Source: a virus. Taken from it: a stretch of 40,674 nucleotides of DNA. Positions within the stretch are counted from its first letter, which is position 1; every line of letters starts with the position of its first letter. Both the position numbers and the translations under genes were made by a program. Below the pieces are notes generated by a model, which was not told where the DNA came from, did not search any database, and saw nothing but the letters and a program-made list of their open reading frames with translations. This document shows, in pieces, positions 1 through 40,674 of the stretch. The stretch lies in the IMG/VR virus record IMGVR_UViG_3300043932_000061. One strand, written 5' to 3'.

Positions 1-127
1 CGCCTGCCCATTGCCTGTCGGAAAGCAGGCGTAAAAATAATATTATTCAGATCACGAATATATTTTGTTTGTCTGATTTTAATTTACAGAATTGCATCTG
101 GTTTAGCTCTGTACCTAACAGAGCATT
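1..127. repeat. Terminal overlap identical to 40548..40674 (circular closure or assembly overlap)
   Basis: Compared base by base: 1..127 equals 40548..40674 exactly, so the window ends are contiguous and the unique unit is 40547 bp. Confidence 0.95.
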
Positions 128-129
128 CT

Positions 130-237
130 AGGATATAGCCAGCCATTGGCGAGCTGGGGTAGTGGCAATTCTACCGAGATATAGCTAAGCATGCCAGCGA
201 CAATTATCTCTTATCGGTTCAATTCCGATGTATCCTC
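130..237 (+). ncRNA. Oversized tRNA-like module (class II-like with an expanded variable arm)
   Basis: Acceptor AGGATAT/GTATCCT. D arm CCAG-CCATTGGCGAG-CTGG. Helix GGTAG/CTACC with 8-nt loop TGGCAATT. 6-bp arm GAGATA/TATCTC with 24-nt loop. T arm ATCGG-TTCAATT-CCGAT. Confidence 0.5.
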
Positions 238-301
238 TAGATTAGCTTTTAGTTATTACGGTTTTCCCAGGTTTGTTTGTTTCGTGACAAAAGCTAATCT
301 A
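238..301 (+). ncRNA. Perfect 13-bp hairpin spacer between tRNA-like modules
   Basis: TAGATTAGCTTTT (238-250) pairs perfectly with AAAAGCTAATCTA (289-301). 38-nt loop contains (GTTT)3. Confidence 0.6.
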
Positions 302-306
302 AACTT

Positions 307-402
307 GGCTCGTTGGTCAAATGGCTAAGAAATGGGTGGATTAACTGACAAGGTAGTTGCCCTTTAACGGTGGAGTTACAAGTTCAATTCTTGTACGAGC
401 TA
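307..402 (+). ncRNA. tRNA-like module with an insertion in the D region
   Basis: Acceptor GGCTCGT/ACGAGCT (G1.U72). T arm ACAAG-TTCAATT-CTTGT. Two alternative internal folds: TAACT/AGTTG with 8-nt loop, or TTGCC/GGTGG with 7-nt loop CTTTAAC. Confidence 0.45.
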
Positions 403-420
403 TTAGATCTAAAATAAAAA

Positions 421-495
421 AGTAGTATTGAAGATGGTATAATCAGGATGCCGGCAATCATGGAGAATGTAGGTTCAAGTCTTACCCTTACTACT
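421..495 (+). ncRNA. Degenerate tRNA-like module (possible tRNA pseudogene)
   Basis: T arm GTAGG-TTCAAGT-CTTAC. Acceptor AGTAGTA pairs perfectly with TACTACT only after a 3-nt CCT bulge. 3-bp D-like stem. Weak central arm with loop CCGGCAAT. Confidence 0.4.
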
Positions 496-500
496 TATCT

Positions 501-574
501 GGTAACTTAGCTCAGTTAGTAGAGCATTGGTGTGAAGTACCAAGCTAGCGATGGTTCGATCCCATCAGTTGCCA
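501..574 (+). tRNA. tRNA, anticodon GAA (Phe-like), with atypical positions
   Basis: Full cloverleaf read by hand: acceptor GGTAACT/AGTTGCC, D arm GCTC-AGTTAGTA-GAGC, anticodon arm TTGGT-GTGAAGT-ACCAA, 6-nt variable loop, T arm GATGG-TTCGATC-CCATC. Deviations: A at a conserved D-loop G, G32, and no encoded CCA. Confidence 0.6.
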
Positions 575-611
575 TAGGAGGCTGATCACCTCCACGATTC
601 ATGAAAAGGGT

Positions 612-682
612 AGCGATATAGCTTAATCGGTGGAGCGGGCCGTGAAAACGGCTGCGGGGCGGTTCGAATCCGTCTATCGCTA
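612..682 (+). tRNA. tRNA-like gene with a shortened anticodon loop (TGAAAA; GAA-type)
   Basis: Acceptor AGCGATA/TATCGCT, D arm GCTT-AATCGGTG-GAGC, T arm GGCGG-TTCGAAT-CCGTC. The anticodon stem GGCCG/CGGCT encloses only 6 nt, and can also fold as GCCGT-GAAA-ACGGC. Confidence 0.5.
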
Positions 683-717
683 TTGCTGGAACAACCAGCT
701 TTCAATTTATTCATCTC

Positions 718-750
718 AAAGAGTAATTATTTTTTAGTTACTCTTTTTTT
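718..750 (+). terminator. Rho-independent terminator closing the RNA locus
   Basis: AAAGAGTAA/TTACTCTTT 9-bp stem followed by a T-run. Confidence 0.6.
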
Positions 751-790: not shown

Positions 791-822
791 GCATGTATAA
801 AGTAAAGAGAGGAGGCGAGAAT

Positions 823-1044
823 ATGCCATGGAAACCTGCTAAAATGCTAAGATTTCTGAAAAAACATGGTTTTGTTGAGATTGGAAGATATACTCATAAA
901 GGTACAAGTCACATCAAACTTATCAATCATGAAACAAACCGCTATACCGAAGTTCCTATGCATAAAAGCAAAGAGCTTAAAAAAGGTATGGAGGCAGGAA
1001 TCTTAAAGCAAGCTGGTTTGACCAAAGAAGCACGTTCTAAGTAA
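823..1044 (+). CDS. hicA: HicA-family mRNA interferase toxin
   Basis: ORF 793..1044, with the best SD (GAGGAGG) before the ATG at 823. The LRFLKKHGF...GSHIK...VPMH..KELKKG..ILKQAGL pattern is typical of HicA/YcfA. Confidence 0.8.
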   Translation: MPWKPAKMLRFLKKHGFVEIGRYTHKGTSHIKLINHETNRYTEVPMHKSKELKKGMEAGILKQAGLTKEARSK

Positions 1045-1067
1045 CGCGCTTTTGGCGTATTCAGATT

Positions 1068-1463
1068 ATGAAGAAACAAGTTTTATATCCTGTAATTGCA
1101 AAAGAATACAATGACGAAGATGGTCATTATTTTGTTATTACGTCTCCTAATGTACAAGGAATGGTTGTTGAAGGAGACACATTAGAGGATGCAGTCGAAG
1201 AGGCAGCAATTGATATTGCTGATTGGTTCGAAGTAAAAGGAAAAGTAGAAGAAGCACAAGATCCTTCTAACTGGTCTTTAGAGAATGATGAAAGATTAGT
1301 TTACGTTCCTGTAAATCTTTCAAAGTTTTATGAAAAATACGGTAAAACAGTAAGAAAGAGCATAACCATTCCTGAATATCTTGCCTTGTGGGCTAAAGAA
1401 AATAAGATTAATGTTTCAAGAGTAGCTTCTGATGCTTTAAGAGGCTTACAAGAAAGCAAATAA
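1068..1463 (+). CDS. hicB: HicB-family antitoxin with a ribbon-helix-helix-like C-terminus
   Basis: N-terminal HicB pattern (YPVI..DG.Y.V..P...G....GDTLEDAVEEA) and C-terminal KSITIPEYL...VSRVASDALRGL. Lies immediately after hicA. Confidence 0.75.
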   Translation: MKKQVLYPVIAKEYNDEDGHYFVITSPNVQGMVVEGDTLEDAVEEAAIDIADWFEVKGKVEEAQDPSNWSLENDERLVYVPVNLSKFYEKYGKTVRKSITIPEYLALWAKENKINVSRVASDALRGLQESK

Positions 1464-6493: not shown

Positions 6494-8125
6494 ATGGGAC
6501 TATGGGCTAGCATTAAGAGTTTATTCAGGAAAGGAGGTGCTAAGTTAGGGATGATTAAATCACTAGGAGCTATTACAGATGATCCAAGAATTGCAGTGCC
6601 GGCAGAAGAATATACACGTATTCGCAGGGCTAAAGATTATTATTCTGATAAGCCTGTAGACGTTAAGTATTGGGTACTTGGTAATGAACGAAAGCGTAAG
6701 ATGAACACCGTCAATATGACGCAAAAAGCTTCTAAACGCCTAGCGTCAATTATCTTCAATGAACAATGTTCCATTAAGGTGAATGATAATGATTTACAAA
6801 AACAACTTGATGAGATTTTTCGTGAAAGTCGCTTTTACACAACATTTGAAACCAATCTACAGCGTGCTATAGCGTTAGGATCAAGTGCAATTAGGCCGTA
6901 TGTTGAAGATGACAAGATTAAATTGAATTGGTCTGACGCGTTAGGCGTATATCCATTGAATGCTAATACTACAGAAGTTAGAGAGATTGCATTAGCTCGT
7001 AAAATTGTTAAGACCGTTAACGATGAGCCACACTATTACACACTGCTAGAATTTCATCAATGGGGCAATAAACAAGCAGATGAGAACGGCCACGAATACA
7101 CACCTTACACAATTACTAATGAGCTGTATGAGTCAACTGATGAAAGCGAAACGGGCACTCAGGTATCTTTAAATTCAATTGAAGAGTATGCTGACTTGCC
7201 GAAACAAGCTACTTTTACGCATATAAATAAGCCCCTGTTTGCCTTCTATCGAAATCCTGGTGACAACAATAAGAGTTTTACTAGCCCACTAGGCTTAGGA
7301 CTATGTGATAATTGTCGGAATATCTTGGATGATATCAATTTGACACAGGACGGCTTTTATTGGGACGTTAAGACCGGCCGAAGACGTGTAATCATCCCTC
7401 AAAGCTGGGTAAGACGTCAAACTCAGATTAACGGCAATCCTATTCCGGAAAATCAGCAAATGTATTGGGACACAGATGATGATGTATTTGTGCCAGTTAA
7501 TGCCAGAATGGACGACAGCAGCGCCTTTAAGGATCTAACCATTAACATTCGTGCAGATCAATATCAAGCAGCGATGAGCTACTTCTTACATGAATTTGAG
7601 AATGAGATTGGATTAAGTGAAGGCACGTTCACAGCAACGCCTACTGGCATTCAGACAGCTACTGGTGTTGTCTCAAGCAACTCAATGACTTATCAAACTA
7701 GATCAAGTTACTTAACGCAGGTAGAGGACACTATAGACCAATTAGTTTATGCAATTGCTGAACTGCTACAGACACCAGAATTATGGAACGATCAACAGCC
7801 TAAATGGACCGGTGACTTAGATAGTTTAGTAATCACGCCTGACTTTAATGACGGCATATTCGTAGATCAAGATGCACAGTTTAAGAATGATTTATCAGCT
7901 CTTAACGCTGGTGCAATGCCTGTTAAAGAGTTTGTTAAGCGTAACTATAATTTGAGCGATGATGAGGCTGAAAACTGGGCGGAACAACTTCAAAAAGAAA
8001 AGGCCACACCAGCCCCTGACTTTGAGCAATTCAATCCATTAGCACTAGATACTAAGAACAAGGGAACTGATAAGCATGGATCCGGAACTAAACAAGATGA
8101 TGAAACAGGCAAGCAAAATAGTTGA
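6494..8125 (+). CDS. Portal protein (SPP1 gp6-like)
   Basis: 543 aa, directly after terL, with an acidic C-terminus. Confidence 0.85.
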   Translation: MGLWASIKSLFRKGGAKLGMIKSLGAITDDPRIAVPAEEYTRIRRAKDYYSDKPVDVKYWVLGNERKRKMNTVNMTQKASKRLASIIFNEQCSIKVNDNDLQKQLDEIFRESRFYTTFETNLQRAIALGSSAIRPYVEDDKIKLNWSDALGVYPLNANTTEVREIALARKIVKTVNDEPHYYTLLEFHQWGNKQADENGHEYTPYTITNELYESTDESETGTQVSLNSIEEYADLPKQATFTHINKPLFAFYRNPGDNNKSFTSPLGLGLCDNCRNILDDINLTQDGFYWDVKTGRRRVIIPQSWVRRQTQINGNPIPENQQMYWDTDDDVFVPVNARMDDSSAFKDLTINIRADQYQAAMSYFLHEFENEIGLSEGTFTATPTGIQTATGVVSSNSMTYQTRSSYLTQVEDTIDQLVYAIAELLQTPELWNDQQPKWTGDLDSLVITPDFNDGIFVDQDAQFKNDLSALNAGAMPVKEFVKRNYNLSDDEAENWAEQLQKEKATPAPDFEQFNPLALDTKNKGTDKHGSGTKQDDETGKQNS

Positions 8126-8924
8126 TTACTATGGTTACTTGCAACAGCATACCTTTTACTTGCTGATTGACGCTTTTAAAAAGCACAAGGGTATGCTTAC
8201 ACGTGTTGATGATAAAAGTATCTTAGAATGGCGTTTAAAGGCACTGGCTGAAATGGGTGGATTAACTGATAAAGTAGTTGACTTTATTGCTAAAAACATT
8301 GGCTATAGTAAACAGGCTATTTATGATCTTATTCAAGGCCAAGGTTTAACAGTTGCTAAAAGAATGAACAGTGAATTATCCACAGCATTAAAGCAACCAA
8401 TGCGAGGTGTGAGTGATGATACAGTAGCAATTATTAATGCTTATGCCGATCAAACCTTTAGAAATGTCAATAACTATGTTAATCAAACGCTGCTAACTAC
8501 TAATGTTCAAAAAAATAGTGCTCTTAAGACCTATCAGCAGATAGTAGACAAGACAGTGCTAGATGTATCTACTGGGAACAAGACAGCCGACAGGGCATTA
8601 AAAGACAACATTCTGCAATGGTATGACAAAGGTCTACCCACAGCCCTAACTGATAGAGGAGGACATGAATGGACGCTAGAAGGCTACACACGAACCGTTA
8701 TTACTTCTACAACACATCGAGTATTTAACGAAGCAAGAGCGCAATCTATGAAAGAGTTCGGAAGTGTGCTTGCTACTATGTCTAGTCATCCAGCAGCAAG
8801 ACCAGCTTGTGCACCTATTCAGGGCAAAGTGGTGTGTATTGTTCCTAAAAGTGATCCAAAGGCTGATCTTTCGTACCCTAATATTTACGATTATGGATAC
8901 GGCAAGCCGGCCGGCACACAGGGT
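8076..8924 (+). CDS. Minor head / head morphogenesis protein (SPP1 gp7 / Mu F-like), exon 1
   Basis: Lies after the portal gene. The reading frame stops 2 codons past the predicted 5' splice site. It ends ...YDYGYGKPAGTQG, just before the family's conserved NC(R/S)H motif. Confidence 0.75.
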
Positions 8925-9878
8925 AGACGTTAATGCCCTGTATAAACATTGTGAACCCTTAGCTTAGGGGTGTTTTAACGGTATTAATTGTCTACATAAA
9001 TGATATAATAGTTATATAGATTAATATTGTTAAAGCTAACGGGGAAAGCCTAATTTAGGTTAATCCCGTGCCAAGTTTAAGAGGTTCTCAGCGATGAATA
9101 AAACTATTGGAATTTATATAATTATTAATAAGGCAACTGGTAAAGTATATATTGGTCAGTCAACTGATATTCATCAAAGATTTATAGATCACTTTAAAAA
9201 AAGTGCAATAAATCAAAGACCTTATAATTTACATAAAGATATTGCTAAATATGGGATTCAAAATTTTAGTAAAAAAATCTTAGAAGAATGCAAAATCTCA
9301 GATCTTGATTTTTTAGAGAAAAAATGGATATTACTTTACAGAAAAAGAAATATTCCAATGTATAACGTAATAGACGGCGCTCCTACTAACGCTGAAAATA
9401 TGGCAAAAGCCAAAAGCGTTCAATTTTCTCAAATGAATAAAAGAAACTGGCAAAACAAAGAATATAGAGAAAGACATTCTAAGCTATCTAGTCAAATTCA
9501 AAAAGAAAGGCTAAAAGATCCAAAATATTTAGCAAAGAAAAGCCAGCAATTAAAAAAATACACTGATTCTCTTAAAAAGAGAGTTGGTCAATATACTAAA
9601 GATGGCAAACTAATTAACACTTTTGATGGTGTGCGAGAAGCTGAAAGAGCAACTGGCATAAATTCAAGACAAATTAGTGCAGTTTGCTTACACAAAAAGT
9701 ATAGAAAGAGTGCTGGCGGTTATCGCTGGGAATTTATTAAAAAGGTGTAGAGACTATCGAAAGAGTAAAAATCGAGTAGAGTAGACCGGAAGACAAGCTA
9801 CCGGTCGAAGTGCAATGCGAGGCGAAAGCCTTAGATGATATAGTCCGACACTTGTAGTAATACAAGATTACAGAAAAG
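8925..9878 (+). mobile_element. Group I intron carrying a GIY-YIG homing endonuclease gene
   Basis: P1: exon ACAGGGT (8918-24) pairs with intron GCCCTGT (8935-41), with U.G at the splice site. The last intron base is G9878. GNRA hairpins AGGC-GAAA-GCCT (9820-31) and CTTGTA-GTAA-TACAAG (9851-66), plus helix GACCGG/CCGGTC (9784-9806). Splicing restores an in-frame ...GTQG|INCSHILYPYIKGVS... Confidence 0.75.
9094..9750 (+). CDS. GIY-YIG homing endonuclease (intron-encoded)
   Basis: GIYIIINKATGKVYIGQS...R..DH motif. C-terminal I-TevI-like DNA-binding repeat (GINSRQISAV...GGYRWEF). Extended -10 TGATATAAT at 9001-9009. Confidence 0.85.
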   Translation: MNKTIGIYIIINKATGKVYIGQSTDIHQRFIDHFKKSAINQRPYNLHKDIAKYGIQNFSKKILEECKISDLDFLEKKWILLYRKRNIPMYNVIDGAPTNAENMAKAKSVQFSQMNKRNWQNKEYRERHSKLSSQIQKERLKDPKYLAKKSQQLKKYTDSLKKRVGQYTKDGKLINTFDGVREAERATGINSRQISAVCLHKKYRKSAGGYRWEFIKKV

Positions 9879-39599: not shown

Positions 39600-40142
39600 G
39601 TGGAACACAAAAACATTGATTTAGGGCTAAGTATGAACATGGAAAAGACTGCAAGACGGGTTACAGGCTTTCTTAAGTACGCGTTTCCAGAGTATGTAAA
39701 AGGTGCTGCTCTTAGCTTAGACGATCTAGCTGGCCAACCTTTTACAGGGATGCCAGCATCTCACAGTGCTACTAACTCGCAAGAGAAAAAGCTAGACCGA
39801 GCTTGGAAGAAAGTTGAAAAGAACGAGCTTAAAGCAGCAACCGTTTATCAAACTATATTGCTATGCCAAAAGAGTCCTACATATCCGTATCAGCAAATAC
39901 TTCTCAACAAATTCGTAAAAAAGCTTCCTGATTGGAAGATACAGCCGATAGTAGGGTATTCTAACAGCCAGTATTATTTAAAGCGCAGAGACGCCTTATG
40001 TGAGTTTGCTGAATTGCTTAATTCCAAGAAGGTAAAAAATGGGTGTTTCGATATACCTGATTTAGTCATTGAGATTGAACCAGAACCGGAAAAAAGTAAA
40101 TCGGACGATCACCGGACAGTTTCCGGACACTTATCGGATTGA
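39600..40142 (+). CDS. arpU: ArpU-family late transcription regulator
   Basis: Last gene of the early module. The EKTARRVTGFLKYAFPEY... and ...YQQILLNKFV layout fits recalled ArpU-family phage regulators. Confidence 0.65.
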   Translation: MEHKNIDLGLSMNMEKTARRVTGFLKYAFPEYVKGAALSLDDLAGQPFTGMPASHSATNSQEKKLDRAWKKVEKNELKAATVYQTILLCQKSPTYPYQQILLNKFVKKLPDWKIQPIVGYSNSQYYLKRRDALCEFAELLNSKKVKNGCFDIPDLVIEIEPEPEKSKSDDHRTVSGHLSD

Positions 40143-40193: not shown

Positions 40194-40547
40194 CCCTTTC
40201 AAACAAGGAAGATCCTAGAATCCTCCAAGAATTTTTAGTAATTACAATTTTAGATCTTTATTCAAGATCTCCTAGTACATCAACCATTATTTGTTTATCT
40301 CTGTCAAATAGTCTCATGATTGATGTGCAGCAGCATTTAGGTTCGATTCCTACTTGTTGCTTACCTAGGCCACGCTACGACCTAGGATTAAATATGCGAT
40401 GACCCCACGCTCGGGCGAGCGTGTTGTAGTTAAGAGTTGGCTAGTCGTTCAGCGGACTGCGCGATAGCCGTGGGCAGTACGACACAATTGGAATTTTAGA
40501 AAGAAAGCAGGAATTTTCTTTCACAATATGAAGTGGGTTCGATTCCC
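40194..40547 (+). ncRNA. 5' part of the ORF-free structured RNA locus (continues at 1..751)
   Basis: No ORF >=60 aa on either strand. Consecutive helices: 40252-40270, 40330-40360, 40364-40386, 40406-40423, 40439-40469, 40471-40557. Confidence 0.55.
40330..40360 (+). ncRNA. Acceptor/T-arm minihelix (tRNA top-half-like)
   Basis: GCAGCA (40330-35) pairs with TGTTGC (40355-60, one G.U). TAGG/CCTA stem closes T loop TTCGATT (40342-48). Confidence 0.4.
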
Positions 40548-40557
40548 CGCCTGCCCA
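40471..40557 (+). ncRNA. tRNA-shaped element with no canonical D or anticodon arm
   Basis: 7-bp acceptor TGGGCAG/CTGCCCA. T stem GTGGG/CCCGC with 8-nt loop TTCGATTC. Central 8-bp helix GAAAGAAA/TTTCTTTC (40499-40522) with 8-nt loop GCAGGAAT. Confidence 0.45.
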
Positions 40558-40674
40558 TTGCCTGTCGGAAAGCAGGCGTAAAAATAATATTATTCAGATC
40601 ACGAATATATTTTGTTTGTCTGATTTTAATTTACAGAATTGCATCTGGTTTAGCTCTGTACCTAACAGAGCATT
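40548..40674. repeat. Second copy of the 127-nt terminal overlap
   Basis: Identical to 1..127. Confidence 0.95.

What the first reader, a model, noticed from the sequence alone, without database searches (positions are those of the whole stretch)
128..495. Three tRNA-shaped modules that keep acceptor and T arms but carry expanded or 8-nt central loops
The modules at 130-237, 307-402 and 421-495 each have a 7-bp acceptor stem and a 5-bp T stem with a TTCAAxT loop. Those are the parts recognised by RNase P, RNase Z and the CCA-adding enzyme.

Their D and anticodon regions are non-canonical:
- The loops are 8 nt (TGGCAATT, GACAAGGT, CCGGCAAT).
- Module 130-237 has a 6-bp variable arm with a 24-nt loop.
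- Module 307-402 has an insertion of about 25 nt in the D region.
- Module 421-495 needs a 3-nt bulge for a perfect acceptor stem.

The upstream element at 40471-40557 also has an 8-nt central loop, so this is a recurring pattern. It may reflect decaying tRNA genes. It may instead reflect tRNA-like processing or punctuation signals, or scaffold modules of a larger RNA.
Basis: seen in the sequence. Interest (0 to 1): 0.65.

Follow-up and report, generated by a model that had tools for sequence, protein, structure and literature searches.

The report
Remodelled tRNA genes in phage island
Three tRNA-shaped elements in a Lactobacillus phage are tRNA genes that kept the half read by tRNA-processing enzymes and lost the decoding half; one was broken by a copied scrap of the phage's own capsid gene, and another is conserved across related phages.

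Summary
The window is a circular, roughly 40.5-kb temperate phage of the Lactobacillus gasseri/johnsonii group. Positions 130-683 form a five-gene tRNA island, and only tRNA-Phe (500-575) is canonical.

A 7-bp acceptor plus a 5-bp T stem with a TTCRANY loop occurs exactly five times in the genome, all here. Shuffled genomes average 0.16.

The three modules have different histories:
- **M2 (307-402)** is tRNA-Glu(UUC), which is intact in relatives. Here a 29-nt patch replaces the 5' strand of the anticodon stem. The 31-nt matching stretch (patch plus a shared GA) agrees 29/31 with the phage's own minor-capsid gene (8250-8280). This is a pseudogene with an identified donor.
- **M1 (130-237)** is a coherent 108-nt five-arm element sitting in the slot that tRNA-Gln occupies in other phages. 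I found 8 variants. Every stem change keeps pairing, one is compensatory, and the loop is always 8 nt. M1 is far better conserved than its flanks.
- **M3 (421-495)** keeps its acceptor and T arms, with one compensatory pair. Its centre has no stable fold.

The 8-nt loop is not a shared motif. Upstream elements (a 12-bp T-loop minihelix, and a tRNA-like domain at 40470-40558) show strong covariation. Selection therefore appears to act on the tRNA top half, which fits processing signals or tRNA mimics. That function is inferred, not shown.

The parts
130..237 (+). M1, a 108-nt five-arm tRNA-like cassette. Acceptor 130-136/230-236. D arm 139-157. Anticodon-like stem 158-162/171-175 with the 8-nt loop 163-170 (TGGCAATT). 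Variable arm stem 176-181/205-210 with a 23-nt loop 182-204. T arm 213-229. Discriminator C237.
   Evidence: The minimum-free-energy fold is the cloverleaf. In 8 distinct variants all 224 stem cells are paired. C11-G27 changes to U-A as a compensatory pair, and three other changes give wobble pairs. The loop is 8 nt in every variant. M1 is more conserved than its flanks. ARAGORN and Rfam do not call it.
307..402 (+). M2, a tRNA-Glu(UUC) gene disrupted by a templated patch. The tRNA-derived parts are 307-330 and 360-402. The foreign patch is 331-359. The anticodon-loop remnant is CTTTAAC, where relatives have CTTTCAC.
   Evidence: Aligned with the intact tRNA-Glu of jlb1, Lj771 and Lj965. Rfam tRNA score is 15.1 bits against a 29-bit cut-off. 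An identical array occurs in a second assembly, L047.
329..359 (+). The 31-nt stretch of M2 that is 29/31 identical to window 8250-8280. It contains the hairpin TAACT-GACAAGGT-AGTTG.
   Evidence: BLAST E-values of 2e-7 to 4e-7 against the window. The same gene segment is found in JNU_P7 and three IMG/VR phages.
8250..8280 (+). Donor-like segment inside the minor capsid protein gene (ORF 8076-8933). It encodes E-M-G-G-L-T-D-K-V-V.
   Evidence: The ORF matches Pfam Phage_min_cap2 at 1.9e-49 and PHROG 581, minor head protein. The two differences from M2 are third-codon-position synonymous changes.
421..496 (+). M3, a 75-nt cassette. Acceptor 421-427/489-495. T arm 469-485. A 3-nt bulge CCT at 486-488. 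The unstructured centre contains TGGTATAAT and the palindrome TGCCGGCA. Discriminator T496.
   Evidence: Five variants. Acceptor and T stems are 100% paired, and T-stem pair 52-62 appears as G-C, G-U and A-U. Folding does not recover a central arm.
500..575 (+). Canonical tRNA-Phe(GAA).
   Evidence: Called by ARAGORN. Rfam scores it 53.5 bits.
611..683 (+). tRNA-like gene with a 6-nt anticodon loop UGAAAA, referred to here as 'odd6'.
   Evidence: ARAGORN reports an anticodon of 'aa'. Rfam scores it 45.1 bits. There are 12 variants, and 8 of them have UGAAAA.
94..125 (+). Conserved leader with the hairpin GCTCTGT-ACCTA-ACAGAGC (106-124), which lies just 5' of the first tRNA slot.
   Evidence: Almost every position is identical in six phages. 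The motif is present in 36 IMG/VR loci. It is duplicated before tRNA-Phe in Lj965.
238..301 (+). Spacer hairpin between M1 and M2. It is a 13-nt inverted repeat: TAGATTAGCTTTT (238-250) and AAAAGCTAATCTA (289-301).
   Evidence: Self-BLAST of the window. The Lj965 counterpart carries one compensatory change.
685..750 (+). End of the island. There are terminator-like hairpins at 685-699 and about 718-746, followed by a run of T.
   Evidence: The first is. The second is read directly from the sequence.
40470..40558 (+). M0, a tRNA-like domain with an 8-bp acceptor, a central hairpin and a T arm. It is the 3' part of a conserved structured RNA that starts near 40396 and is followed by a conserved hairpin at 40559-40578.
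   Evidence: The consensus fold of 29 sequences has 36 pairs, 9 of them with compensatory changes. There is no Rfam match.
40329..40362 (+). tRNA minihelix. In relatives it is a continuous 12-bp helix capped by a 7-nt T loop. The window copy has a 7-bp acceptor-like stem and a 4-bp T stem.
   Evidence: 23 distinct variants. 8 of 12 pairs have compensatory changes. No shuffle out of 500 reaches the observed covariation.

Best explanation
**What it is.** The stretch is the front of a phage tRNA island that runs from the leader (94-125), through the genes (130-683), to the terminators (685-750). The phage is a Lactobacillus gasseri/johnsonii temperate phage. The three modules are tRNA-gene derivatives. 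Each keeps the acceptor/T-arm 'top half' and has lost a decoding 'bottom half'. Each has its own history.

- **M2** is tRNA-Glu(UUC) knocked out by a short templated insertion. A 29-nt patch was copied from the phage's minor-capsid gene at joints with microhomology. It replaced the 5' strand of the anticodon stem.
- **M1** is a coherent 108-nt cassette in the slot that tRNA-Gln fills in other phages. Its five-arm fold and 8-nt loop are maintained.
- **M3** keeps only its acceptor and T arms, and its centre drifts.

**How it most likely works (inferred).** The island is transcribed as one precursor. RNase P, RNase Z and the CCA-adding enzyme recognise the retained top halves and cut the modules out as they would tRNAs. 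None of the three can decode.

Selection acts on the top half. M1, M3 and the upstream minihelix and M0 domain would then serve as processing or punctuation signals, or as stable tRNA mimics. M2 is a recent, probably neutral, casualty that still carries an intact top half.
For: **Origin (shown)**
- Relatives carry canonical tRNA-Gln, Glu, Phe and Tyr in the same slots.
- M2 aligns with intact tRNA-Glu on both sides of the patch.
- The 31-nt stretch matches 8250-8280 at 29/31, E about 1e-7.
- The donor gene is a minor capsid protein.
- The M2 array is identical in a second assembly.

**Top half retained (shown)**
- The acceptor-plus-T-arm geometry occurs five times, all in the island, against 0.16 expected.
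- M1 stems are 100% paired in 8 variants, with one compensatory and three wobble changes.
- M1 is 90-97% identical where its flanks are 54-80%.
- M3 acceptor and T stems are 100% paired in 5 variants. One pair appears as G-C, G-U and A-U. T-loop variation is confined to positions 57, 59 and 60, and the centre carries an indel and several substitutions.
- The upstream minihelix has compensatory changes in 8 of 12 pairs, and no shuffle of 500 matches it.
- The M0 RNA has 9 compensatory pairs.
- The odd6 gene keeps a 6-nt loop in 8 of 12 variants.

**Not decoders (shown)**
- ARAGORN and Rfam do not call them.
- The M1 loop has no U33.
- TAA is the commonest stop codon, and there are no interrupted genes.

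**Precedent for the mechanism**
- Plant mitochondrial t-elements are non-canonical cloverleaves with a conserved T arm. They are cut by RNase P and RNase Z and acquire non-encoded C or CC, occasionally followed by A, at their 3' ends (PMC1920247).
- RNase P processes many non-tRNA substrates, including phage RNAs (PMC11143913).
Against: - There are no expression, processing or CCA-tailing data for any module.
- M1 and M3 families are narrow: 8 and 5 variants, all at least 90% identical. Covariation is one pair each, and shuffle controls are not decisive (12/500 for M1, 199/500 for M3).
- Phage mosaicism could spread a neutral cassette into diverged backgrounds. That would mimic the result that the cassette is better conserved than its flanks.
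- The 3-nt bulge between the T stem and the acceptor 3' strand of M3 breaks the coaxial stack that RNase P and the CCA-adding enzyme read.
- In the window copy of M3 the T arm is not part of the minimum-free-energy fold.
- It is unclear why a 40-kb phage would need so many processing signals.
Confidence: 0.55

Rival explanations
1. All three modules are neutral, decaying tRNA pseudogenes. They persist only because they hitch-hike in a recombining tRNA island and have no RNA-level function.
For: - M2 is clearly a fresh knock-out of tRNA-Glu.
- The M1 and M3 families are young and narrow, with no divergent relatives.
- M3 has no stable fold in its centre.
- The shuffle controls for M1 and M3 are weak.
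- The cassette order differs between phages, so recombination could explain a cassette that is better conserved than its flanks.
Against: - Every one of the stem changes seen in M1 and M3 preserves pairing.
- The length of the M1 8-nt loop never varies.
- M1 identity exceeds that of both flanks in every cross-group comparison.
- Non-decoding top-half mimics next door, the minihelix and M0, are under unmistakable structural selection.
Confidence: 0.28
2. The modules, M1 above all, are tRNA decoys. They would soak up or block host tRNA-directed defence enzymes such as anticodon nucleases or acceptor-end toxins. Alternatively they are phage tRNAs whose anticodon loops were altered to escape such enzymes.
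For: - Anticodon loops are specifically non-canonical while the rest of the body is kept. M1 has 8 nt, odd6 has 6 nt, and Lj965 slot 1 and L016 slot 1 are degenerate.
- The canonical tRNAs in these islands include Gln(UUG) and Glu(UUC). By established knowledge these carry xm5s2U34, a class targeted by some anticodon nucleases.
- Evasion of nucleases through anticodon-loop changes has been proposed for phage tRNAs (PMC10264068).
Against: - No defence nuclease is identified in the host.
- Loops of 6 or 8 nt without U33 cannot replace a cleaved decoder.
- No decoy tRNA of this architecture is known.
- The evidence does not distinguish this idea from the processing-signal idea.
Confidence: 0.1
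3. The modules are working decoders. M1 would be a quadruplet or frameshift-suppressor tRNA with an 8-nt loop. M2 would be an ochre suppressor with anticodon UUA and an extra arm.
For: - M1 has an 8-nt loop on a 5-bp stem in a cloverleaf.
- The M2 remnant CTTTAAC would read as anticodon UUA if TTGCC/GGTGG paired.
Against: - The M1 loop UGGCAAUU has G, not U, at the position of U33. M1 also has no nucleotide 26 and a 35-nt variable arm.
- The M2 canonical anticodon stem would need three G-U pairs, and it is not in the minimum-free-energy fold.
- TAA is the most used stop codon (20 of 38 long ORFs). No genes are split by in-frame stops.
- Rfam and ARAGORN reject both.
Confidence: 0.02
4. M1-M3 are domains of one larger structured RNA, acting as scaffold modules rather than separate genes.
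For: - The upstream M0 element really is the 3' domain of a longer conserved RNA.
- Conserved hairpins lie between the modules.
Against: - M1, M2/tRNA-Glu, M3, tRNA-Phe and odd6 occur in many different combinations and orders in related phages. They are interchangeable with ordinary tRNA genes.
- No long-range pairing between modules was found.
- No Rfam family matches, including GOLLD and ROOL, which lie near tRNAs in Lactobacillales phages.
Confidence: 0.03

Closest known systems
Plant mitochondrial t-elements (PMC1920247)
   Same: They are non-canonical cloverleaves that keep a conserved T arm (GGTTCRANYCC) and an acceptor stem. They do not decode, and they lie between genes. In mitochondria they are cut by RNase P and RNase Z and acquire non-encoded C or CC, occasionally followed by A, at their 3' ends.
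   Different: They belong to a different domain of life and have an independent origin. Here the elements sit in a phage tRNA island beside working tRNAs, and no transcript ends have been mapped.
tRNA pseudogenes and tRNA gene fragments in prokaryotes and prophages (PMC9897764)
   Same: M2 is a tRNA gene made non-functional while keeping recognisable arms. It is of the kind that annotation tools may miscall.
   Different: Described fragments are mostly truncated copies at integration sites. M2 is full-length with an internal templated patch whose donor is identifiable. M1 is not a fragment but an enlarged and conserved cassette.
Pseudo-tRNA 'tRNA-Other' of Bacillus cereus (PMC3399842)
   Same: It is a tRNA-shaped gene in a Firmicute mobile-element context. 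It does not act in translation, yet it has a phenotype.
   Different: There is no sequence relationship. tRNA-Other has a near-canonical size. M1 has an 8-nt loop and a 35-nt variable arm, and no phenotype is known for it.
Phage tRNAs with altered anticodon loops that evade tRNA-targeting defences (PMC10264068)
   Same: These are phage-borne tRNA genes whose anticodon loops depart from the host consensus while the body is kept.
   Different: Those tRNAs keep 7-nt loops and still decode. The elements here have loops of 6 or 8 nt, or no anticodon arm at all.
Prophage tRNAs of Lj965 proposed to complement a host tRNA lost on integration (noted in PMC10865867)
   Same: This is the same phage group and the same tRNA island. 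It explains why canonical tRNAs are kept here.
   Different: It cannot explain the non-decoding cassettes M1, M2 and M3.
Small stable tRNA-like RNAs encoded in the phage T4 tRNA cluster ('species 1 and 2' RNAs; recalled from memory, with only the catalogue paper cited in PMC11143913)
   Same: They are extra RNAs that are not tRNAs. They are co-encoded with phage tRNAs and matured by the tRNA-processing machinery. Their function is unknown.
   Different: The phage, host and sequences are all different. The comparison rests on recall and was not tested here.

Membership tests
Canonical tRNA (Rfam RF00005 / ARAGORN) | Covariance-model score at or above the gathering cut-off (29 bits), or a default ARAGORN call | tested here: not met
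   M2 scores 15.1 bits. M1 and M3 get no tRNA hit even at E up to 10. ARAGORN calls only 500-575 and 611-683.
Canonical tRNA (Rfam RF00005 / ARAGORN) | 7-bp acceptor stem stacked on a 5-bp T stem with a T54-T55-C56-R57-A58 loop | tested here: met
   Met by M1 and M2. Met by M3 only if a 3-nt bulge is allowed.
Canonical tRNA (Rfam RF00005 / ARAGORN) | 5-bp anticodon stem closing a 7-nt loop with U33 and a purine at position 37 | tested here: not met
   M1 has the 8-nt loop UGGCAAUU with G in second place. The M2 stem was replaced by the patch. M3 has no such arm.
tRNA pseudogene | Orthologous position holds an intact tRNA in relatives, and there is a disabling lesion here | tested here: met
   Met for M2 only. 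tRNA-Glu(UUC) is intact in jlb1, Lj771, Lj965 and others, and a 29-nt patch replaces 5 nt here.
tRNA pseudogene | Random, structure-breaking decay among copies | tested here: not met
   For M1 and M3 all stem cells remain paired across 8 and 5 variants. One compensatory pair is seen in each.
t-element-like processing signal | Non-canonical cloverleaf with a conserved T arm and acceptor stem | tested here: met
   The upstream minihelix and M0 also qualify.
t-element-like processing signal | Ends coincide with mapped transcript ends, with cleavage by RNase P and RNase Z and CCA addition | not testable with these tools
   There are no RNA data. The only observation is that a T follows the discriminator in M1, M2, tRNA-Phe and odd6. 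Recalled knowledge says this suits RNase Z.
Frameshift-suppressor (quadruplet) tRNA | Otherwise canonical tRNA body with an 8-nt anticodon loop that keeps U33 | tested here: not met
   The M1 loop lacks U33, nucleotide 26 is absent, and the variable arm is 35 nt.
Nonsense-suppressor tRNA | Intact cloverleaf with an anticodon complementary to a stop codon, and a genome that tolerates read-through | tested here: not met
   The M2 anticodon stem is destroyed. TAA ends 20 of 38 long ORFs.
tmRNA, or GOLLD/ROOL large RNAs of Lactobacillales phages | Match to the Rfam model, or an ARAGORN tmRNA call | tested here: not met
   The only tmRNA hits are T-arm fragments of 7-11 bits. There is no GOLLD or ROOL hit.

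The most novel reading that the evidence does not exclude
This phage lineage maintains a set of non-decoding tRNA 'top-half' mimics: a 12-bp T-loop minihelix, the M0 domain of a structured RNA of about 180 nt, the five-arm M1 with an invariant 8-nt loop, M3, and the 6-nt-loop odd6. These would be functional RNAs acting as processing punctuation between the early and late regions, or as decoys for tRNA-directed host enzymes. New members would be generated by short templated patches copied into the centre of tRNA genes, and M2 would be a caught-in-the-act example. In M1 the loop UGGCA may pair with the invariant UGCCA of its own variable-arm loop.
Probability: 0.2. Interest if true: 0.65.

Novelty: new variant of a known kind. 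Interest (0 to 1): 0.45.

Why it matters
Why phages carry tRNA genes is still debated, and non-decoding tRNA-like genes are usually dismissed as annotation noise.

This locus offers three things:
- A datable mechanism for how a phage tRNA gene is remodelled: a 29-nt templated patch from a capsid gene.
- A conserved five-arm tRNA-like RNA that cannot decode.
- Neighbouring tRNA mimics, absent from Rfam, with clear covariation.

If these RNAs are processed, the locus would extend the plant-mitochondrial t-element idea to phages. It would also provide small, testable substrates for RNase P, RNase Z and the CCA-adding enzyme in Lactobacillus.

If they are not processed, the locus is still a clean example of tRNA-island turnover.

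Tried and rejected
- **Relaxed ARAGORN.** Lowered thresholds and the intron option gave assorted weak calls, such as 'tRNA-SeC' for M3 and intron-containing calls for M2. I did not use them as evidence.
- **Shared 8-nt loop or GRCAA(T) loop motif.** I noted it by eye in several modules and did not pursue it statistically. The M2 instance comes from a coding patch.
- **M1 loop pairing with its variable-arm loop (UGGCA with UGCCA, -7.4 kcal/mol).** A 5-nt complement arises in 8% of shuffles. Both pentamers are invariant while their neighbours vary. This is suggestive only.
- **Ancestry of M1 and M3.** Local alignment to the island's tRNAs shows only a 13-nt 5' match between M1 and tRNA-Gln, plus T-arm similarity. 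Neither parent is identified with confidence.
- **Donors for the M1 and M3 centres.**
  - None was found in the window, in 0.49 Mb of related loci, or in GenBank phages.
  - A 15-nt match links the M3 segment TGAAGATGGTATAAT to an intergenic, promoter-like site in three relatives. It is borderline, E about 0.01.
- **Divergent or intermediate forms of M1 and M3.** A covariance model and four pattern scans found none.
- **Exact allele of the capsid gene matching the M2 patch.** Not found. All five alleles read GAT AAA.
- **Species spread.** Genome-collection scans found only L. johnsonii representatives.
- **Sigma-70 promoter before M1.** None was detected. How the island is transcribed remains open.
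Full report
**Context**

The first 127 bases of the window repeat at its end, so it is a circular unit of 40,547 bp. BLAST places it among temperate phages of Lactobacillus gasseri and johnsonii: phi jlb1 (91% identity over 1-525), KC5a, Lj771, Lj965 and JNU_P11.

The finding lies in a non-coding stretch of about 1.2 kb. Upstream is a 'transcriptional activator' gene (39600-40142, PHROG 248). Downstream is a HicA/HicB pair with its own promoter.

In relatives the same stretch holds annotated or detectable tRNA-Gln(UUG), Glu(UUC), Phe(GAA) and Tyr(GUA). In the window ARAGORN and Rfam call only two genes. One is tRNA-Phe at 500-575. The other, at 611-683, has a 6-nt anticodon loop.

**Observation check**

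I scanned the whole genome on both strands for a 5-bp T stem closing TTCRANY, followed after 0-3 nt by a 7-mer that pairs fully with a 7-mer upstream. The scan finds five sites, all between 130 and 681 on the + strand: M1 (130-236), M2 (307-401), M3 (421-495, with a 3-nt bulge), tRNA-Phe and the odd tRNA. One hundred dinucleotide shuffles average 0.16 sites. The acceptor and T arms are real.

- M1 folds on its own into a five-arm cloverleaf with a 5-bp stem and the 8-nt loop UGGCAAUU.
- The M2 8-nt loop lies inside a foreign patch.
- The M3 loop is closed by only three pairs, and folding does not recover it.
- The upstream element has a central loop of about 5-7 nt that varies between phages.

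**M2**

Alignment with jlb1, Lj771 and Lj965 shows that M2 is their tRNA-Glu(UUC). The first 24 nt (acceptor 5' strand and D arm) are identical. So are the last 43 nt, apart from one base in the anticodon loop (CTTTCAC becomes CTTTAAC). Between them, 29 nt replace the 5 nt that form the end of the D stem, nucleotide 26 and the 5' strand of the anticodon stem.

A BLAST of this region against the window finds 329-359 matching 8250-8280 at 29 of 31 positions, on the same strand, with E between 2e-7 and 4e-7. That site lies in ORF 8076-8933, a minor capsid protein (Pfam Phage_min_cap2, 1.9e-49; PHROG 581).

The two differences are GAT to GAC and AAA to AAG. Both are synonymous third-position changes, and both fall in the loop of the hairpin TAACT/AGTTG. 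All five gene alleles I could read have GAT AAA.

Short identities flank both joints (TGGCT.A on the 5' side, CTTTA on the 3' side). I read this as a microhomology-guided templated insertion. That is an inference.

The M2 array is 100% identical in an independent 582-kb contig, L047, so it is not an assembly artefact. No other phage in IMG/VR has the patch. M2 is therefore a recently disabled tRNA-Glu.

Reading it as an ochre suppressor (anticodon UUA) fails on two counts. The anticodon stem would need three G-U pairs and is not in the minimum-free-energy fold. TAA is also the most frequent stop codon.

**M1**

Pattern scans of IMG/VR and metagenomes gave 8 distinct variants from about 17 loci. 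On the cloverleaf all 224 stem cells are paired. The D-stem pair C11-G27 becomes U-A in three variants, and three other stem changes give G-U pairs.

Every copy has 8 nt, either UGGCAAUU or UGGCAGUU.

Across the two main backgrounds M1 is 90-97% identical. The 120 nt upstream are 70-78% identical and the 120 nt downstream are 54-80%.

M1 always follows the leader directly and never co-occurs with tRNA-Gln, which holds that slot in 20 of the mapped loci. It shares the 5' 13 nt AGGA(C)TATAGCCA with tRNA-Gln. It may therefore descend from tRNA-Gln, but I found no intermediates and no donor for its centre.

M1 cannot be a normal decoder. The loop has G where U33 should be, there is no nucleotide 26, and the variable arm is 35 nt.

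The loop pentamer UGGCA is complementary to UGCCA in the variable-arm loop. Both are invariant while their neighbours vary. However, a 5-nt complement arises by chance in 8% of shuffles.

**M3**

There are five variants, one found only by a partial match in L048. Acceptor and T stems are paired in all of them, and T-stem pair 52-62 appears as G-C, G-U (in the window) and A-U. T-loop changes fall only at positions 57 (purine), 59 and 60, as in real tRNAs.

The centre differs by a 2-nt indel and several substitutions. It has no stable or conserved fold. With five sequences the statistics are not decisive (199 of 500 shuffles match).

**Neighbourhood**

Three more non-decoding tRNA-like elements surround the finding.
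1. The gene at 611-683 has 12 variants, and 8 of them keep the 6-nt loop UGAAAA.
2. The element at 40470-40558 has an 8-bp acceptor, a T arm and a central hairpin, but no D or anticodon arm. It is the 3' domain of a longer conserved RNA. The consensus fold of 29 sequences has 36 pairs, 9 with compensatory changes, including pairs in the T arm and in two flanking hairpins; the acceptor pairs vary on one side only and stay paired. It has no Rfam match.
3. At 40329-40362 lies a tRNA minihelix. In 23 variants a 12-bp helix capped by a T loop has compensatory changes in 8 pairs, and no shuffle of 500 reaches the observed covariation.

These show that selection in this locus can act on the acceptor/T-arm half alone.

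**Mechanism**

The shown facts are these:
- The modules derive from tRNA genes.
- Their top halves are retained.
- Their bottom halves are remodelled or lost.
- M2's lesion has an identified source.

The inferred step is that the island is transcribed as one precursor from the conserved leader to the terminators at 685-750. RNase P, RNase Z and the CCA-adding enzyme would then recognise the retained halves. By established knowledge all three enzymes read the acceptor/T minihelix.

The closest working analogy is the plant mitochondrial t-element (PMC1920247). RNase P is also known to cut many non-tRNA substrates, including phage RNAs (PMC11143913).

I rate the composite explanation at about 0.55, and pure neutral decay of M1 and M3 at about 0.28. 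A decoy role against tRNA-directed defences (compare PMC10264068) is possible but untested.

**Novelty**

Phage tRNA islands, pseudo-tRNAs and tRNA-like processing signals are all known. Three things are new here: the conserved five-arm M1 cassette, the templated capsid-gene patch in M2, and two covarying tRNA mimics that are absent from Rfam. All are restricted, as far as the scans reach, to L. gasseri/johnsonii phages.

Noticed in passing
window 40396-40578 (continues into 1-31 of the circular unit): A conserved structured RNA with no Rfam match. It has a hairpin at 40406-40423, a long hairpin at 40439-40469, a tRNA-like domain at 40470-40558 and a 3' hairpin at 40559-40578. Across 29 sequences it has 36 pairs, 9 of them compensatory. 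It may be a leader or small RNA lying between the activator gene and the tRNA island.
   Followed up: partly
window 40329-40362: A tRNA acceptor/T-arm minihelix, a 12-bp helix with a 7-nt T loop in relatives. It is conserved in 23 variants with 8 compensatory pairs. It is followed by a conserved CCTAGG(C) palindrome.
   Followed up: partly
window 611-683: A tRNA-like gene with the 6-nt anticodon loop UGAAAA, resembling tRNA-Phe(GAA) without nucleotide 32. It sits beside a canonical tRNA-Phe. The 6-nt loop is kept in 8 of 12 variants from different phages.
   Followed up: partly
window 94-125: A leader with the hairpin GCTCTGT-ACCTA-ACAGAGC. Almost every position is identical in six phages, and its core motif is present in 36 IMG/VR loci. 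It is duplicated before tRNA-Phe in Lj965. No sigma-70 promoter is detected near it, so it could be an activator-dependent promoter or an RNA processing element.
   Followed up: no
window 435-443, inside M3: The sequence TGGTATAAT is a perfect extended -10 promoter element. The 15-mer TGAAGATGGTATAAT recurs in an intergenic, promoter-like site of three related phages (L011, L023, L031). It is weaker in other M3 copies (TATAAC) and absent from L048.
   Followed up: partly
window 449-456, inside M3: The 8-nt palindrome TGCCGGCA appears as TGCTAGCA in L048, a symmetrical double change that keeps the palindrome. It is broken in L024 (TGCCGACA).
   Followed up: no
window 238-250 and 289-301: A perfect 13-nt inverted repeat forms a spacer hairpin between M1 and M2. 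The Lj965 counterpart carries a compensatory change.
   Followed up: partly
L005 about 1180-1240 and homologous positions in L001, L003 and L006 (absent from the window): Relatives carry a further small tRNA-like element (TAACCG...CAGTCGTTCGATTCGACTGG CGGTTA) and a pair of GCCTAGGC palindromes flanking a TATAAT box. Both lie upstream of the structured RNA. The window and L045/L047 have a shorter variant with two CCTAGG sites 11 nt apart.
   Followed up: no
window 793-1463: A HicA toxin and HicB-like antitoxin pair with its own promoter (TTGATT-17-TATAAT, 762-790). It sits directly after the tRNA island, and relatives have other genes at this position.
   Followed up: no
window 1-127 and 40548-40674: The two ends are identical over 127 bases. 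The window is therefore a circular or circularly permuted assembly, and features near the ends are continuous.
   Followed up: yes
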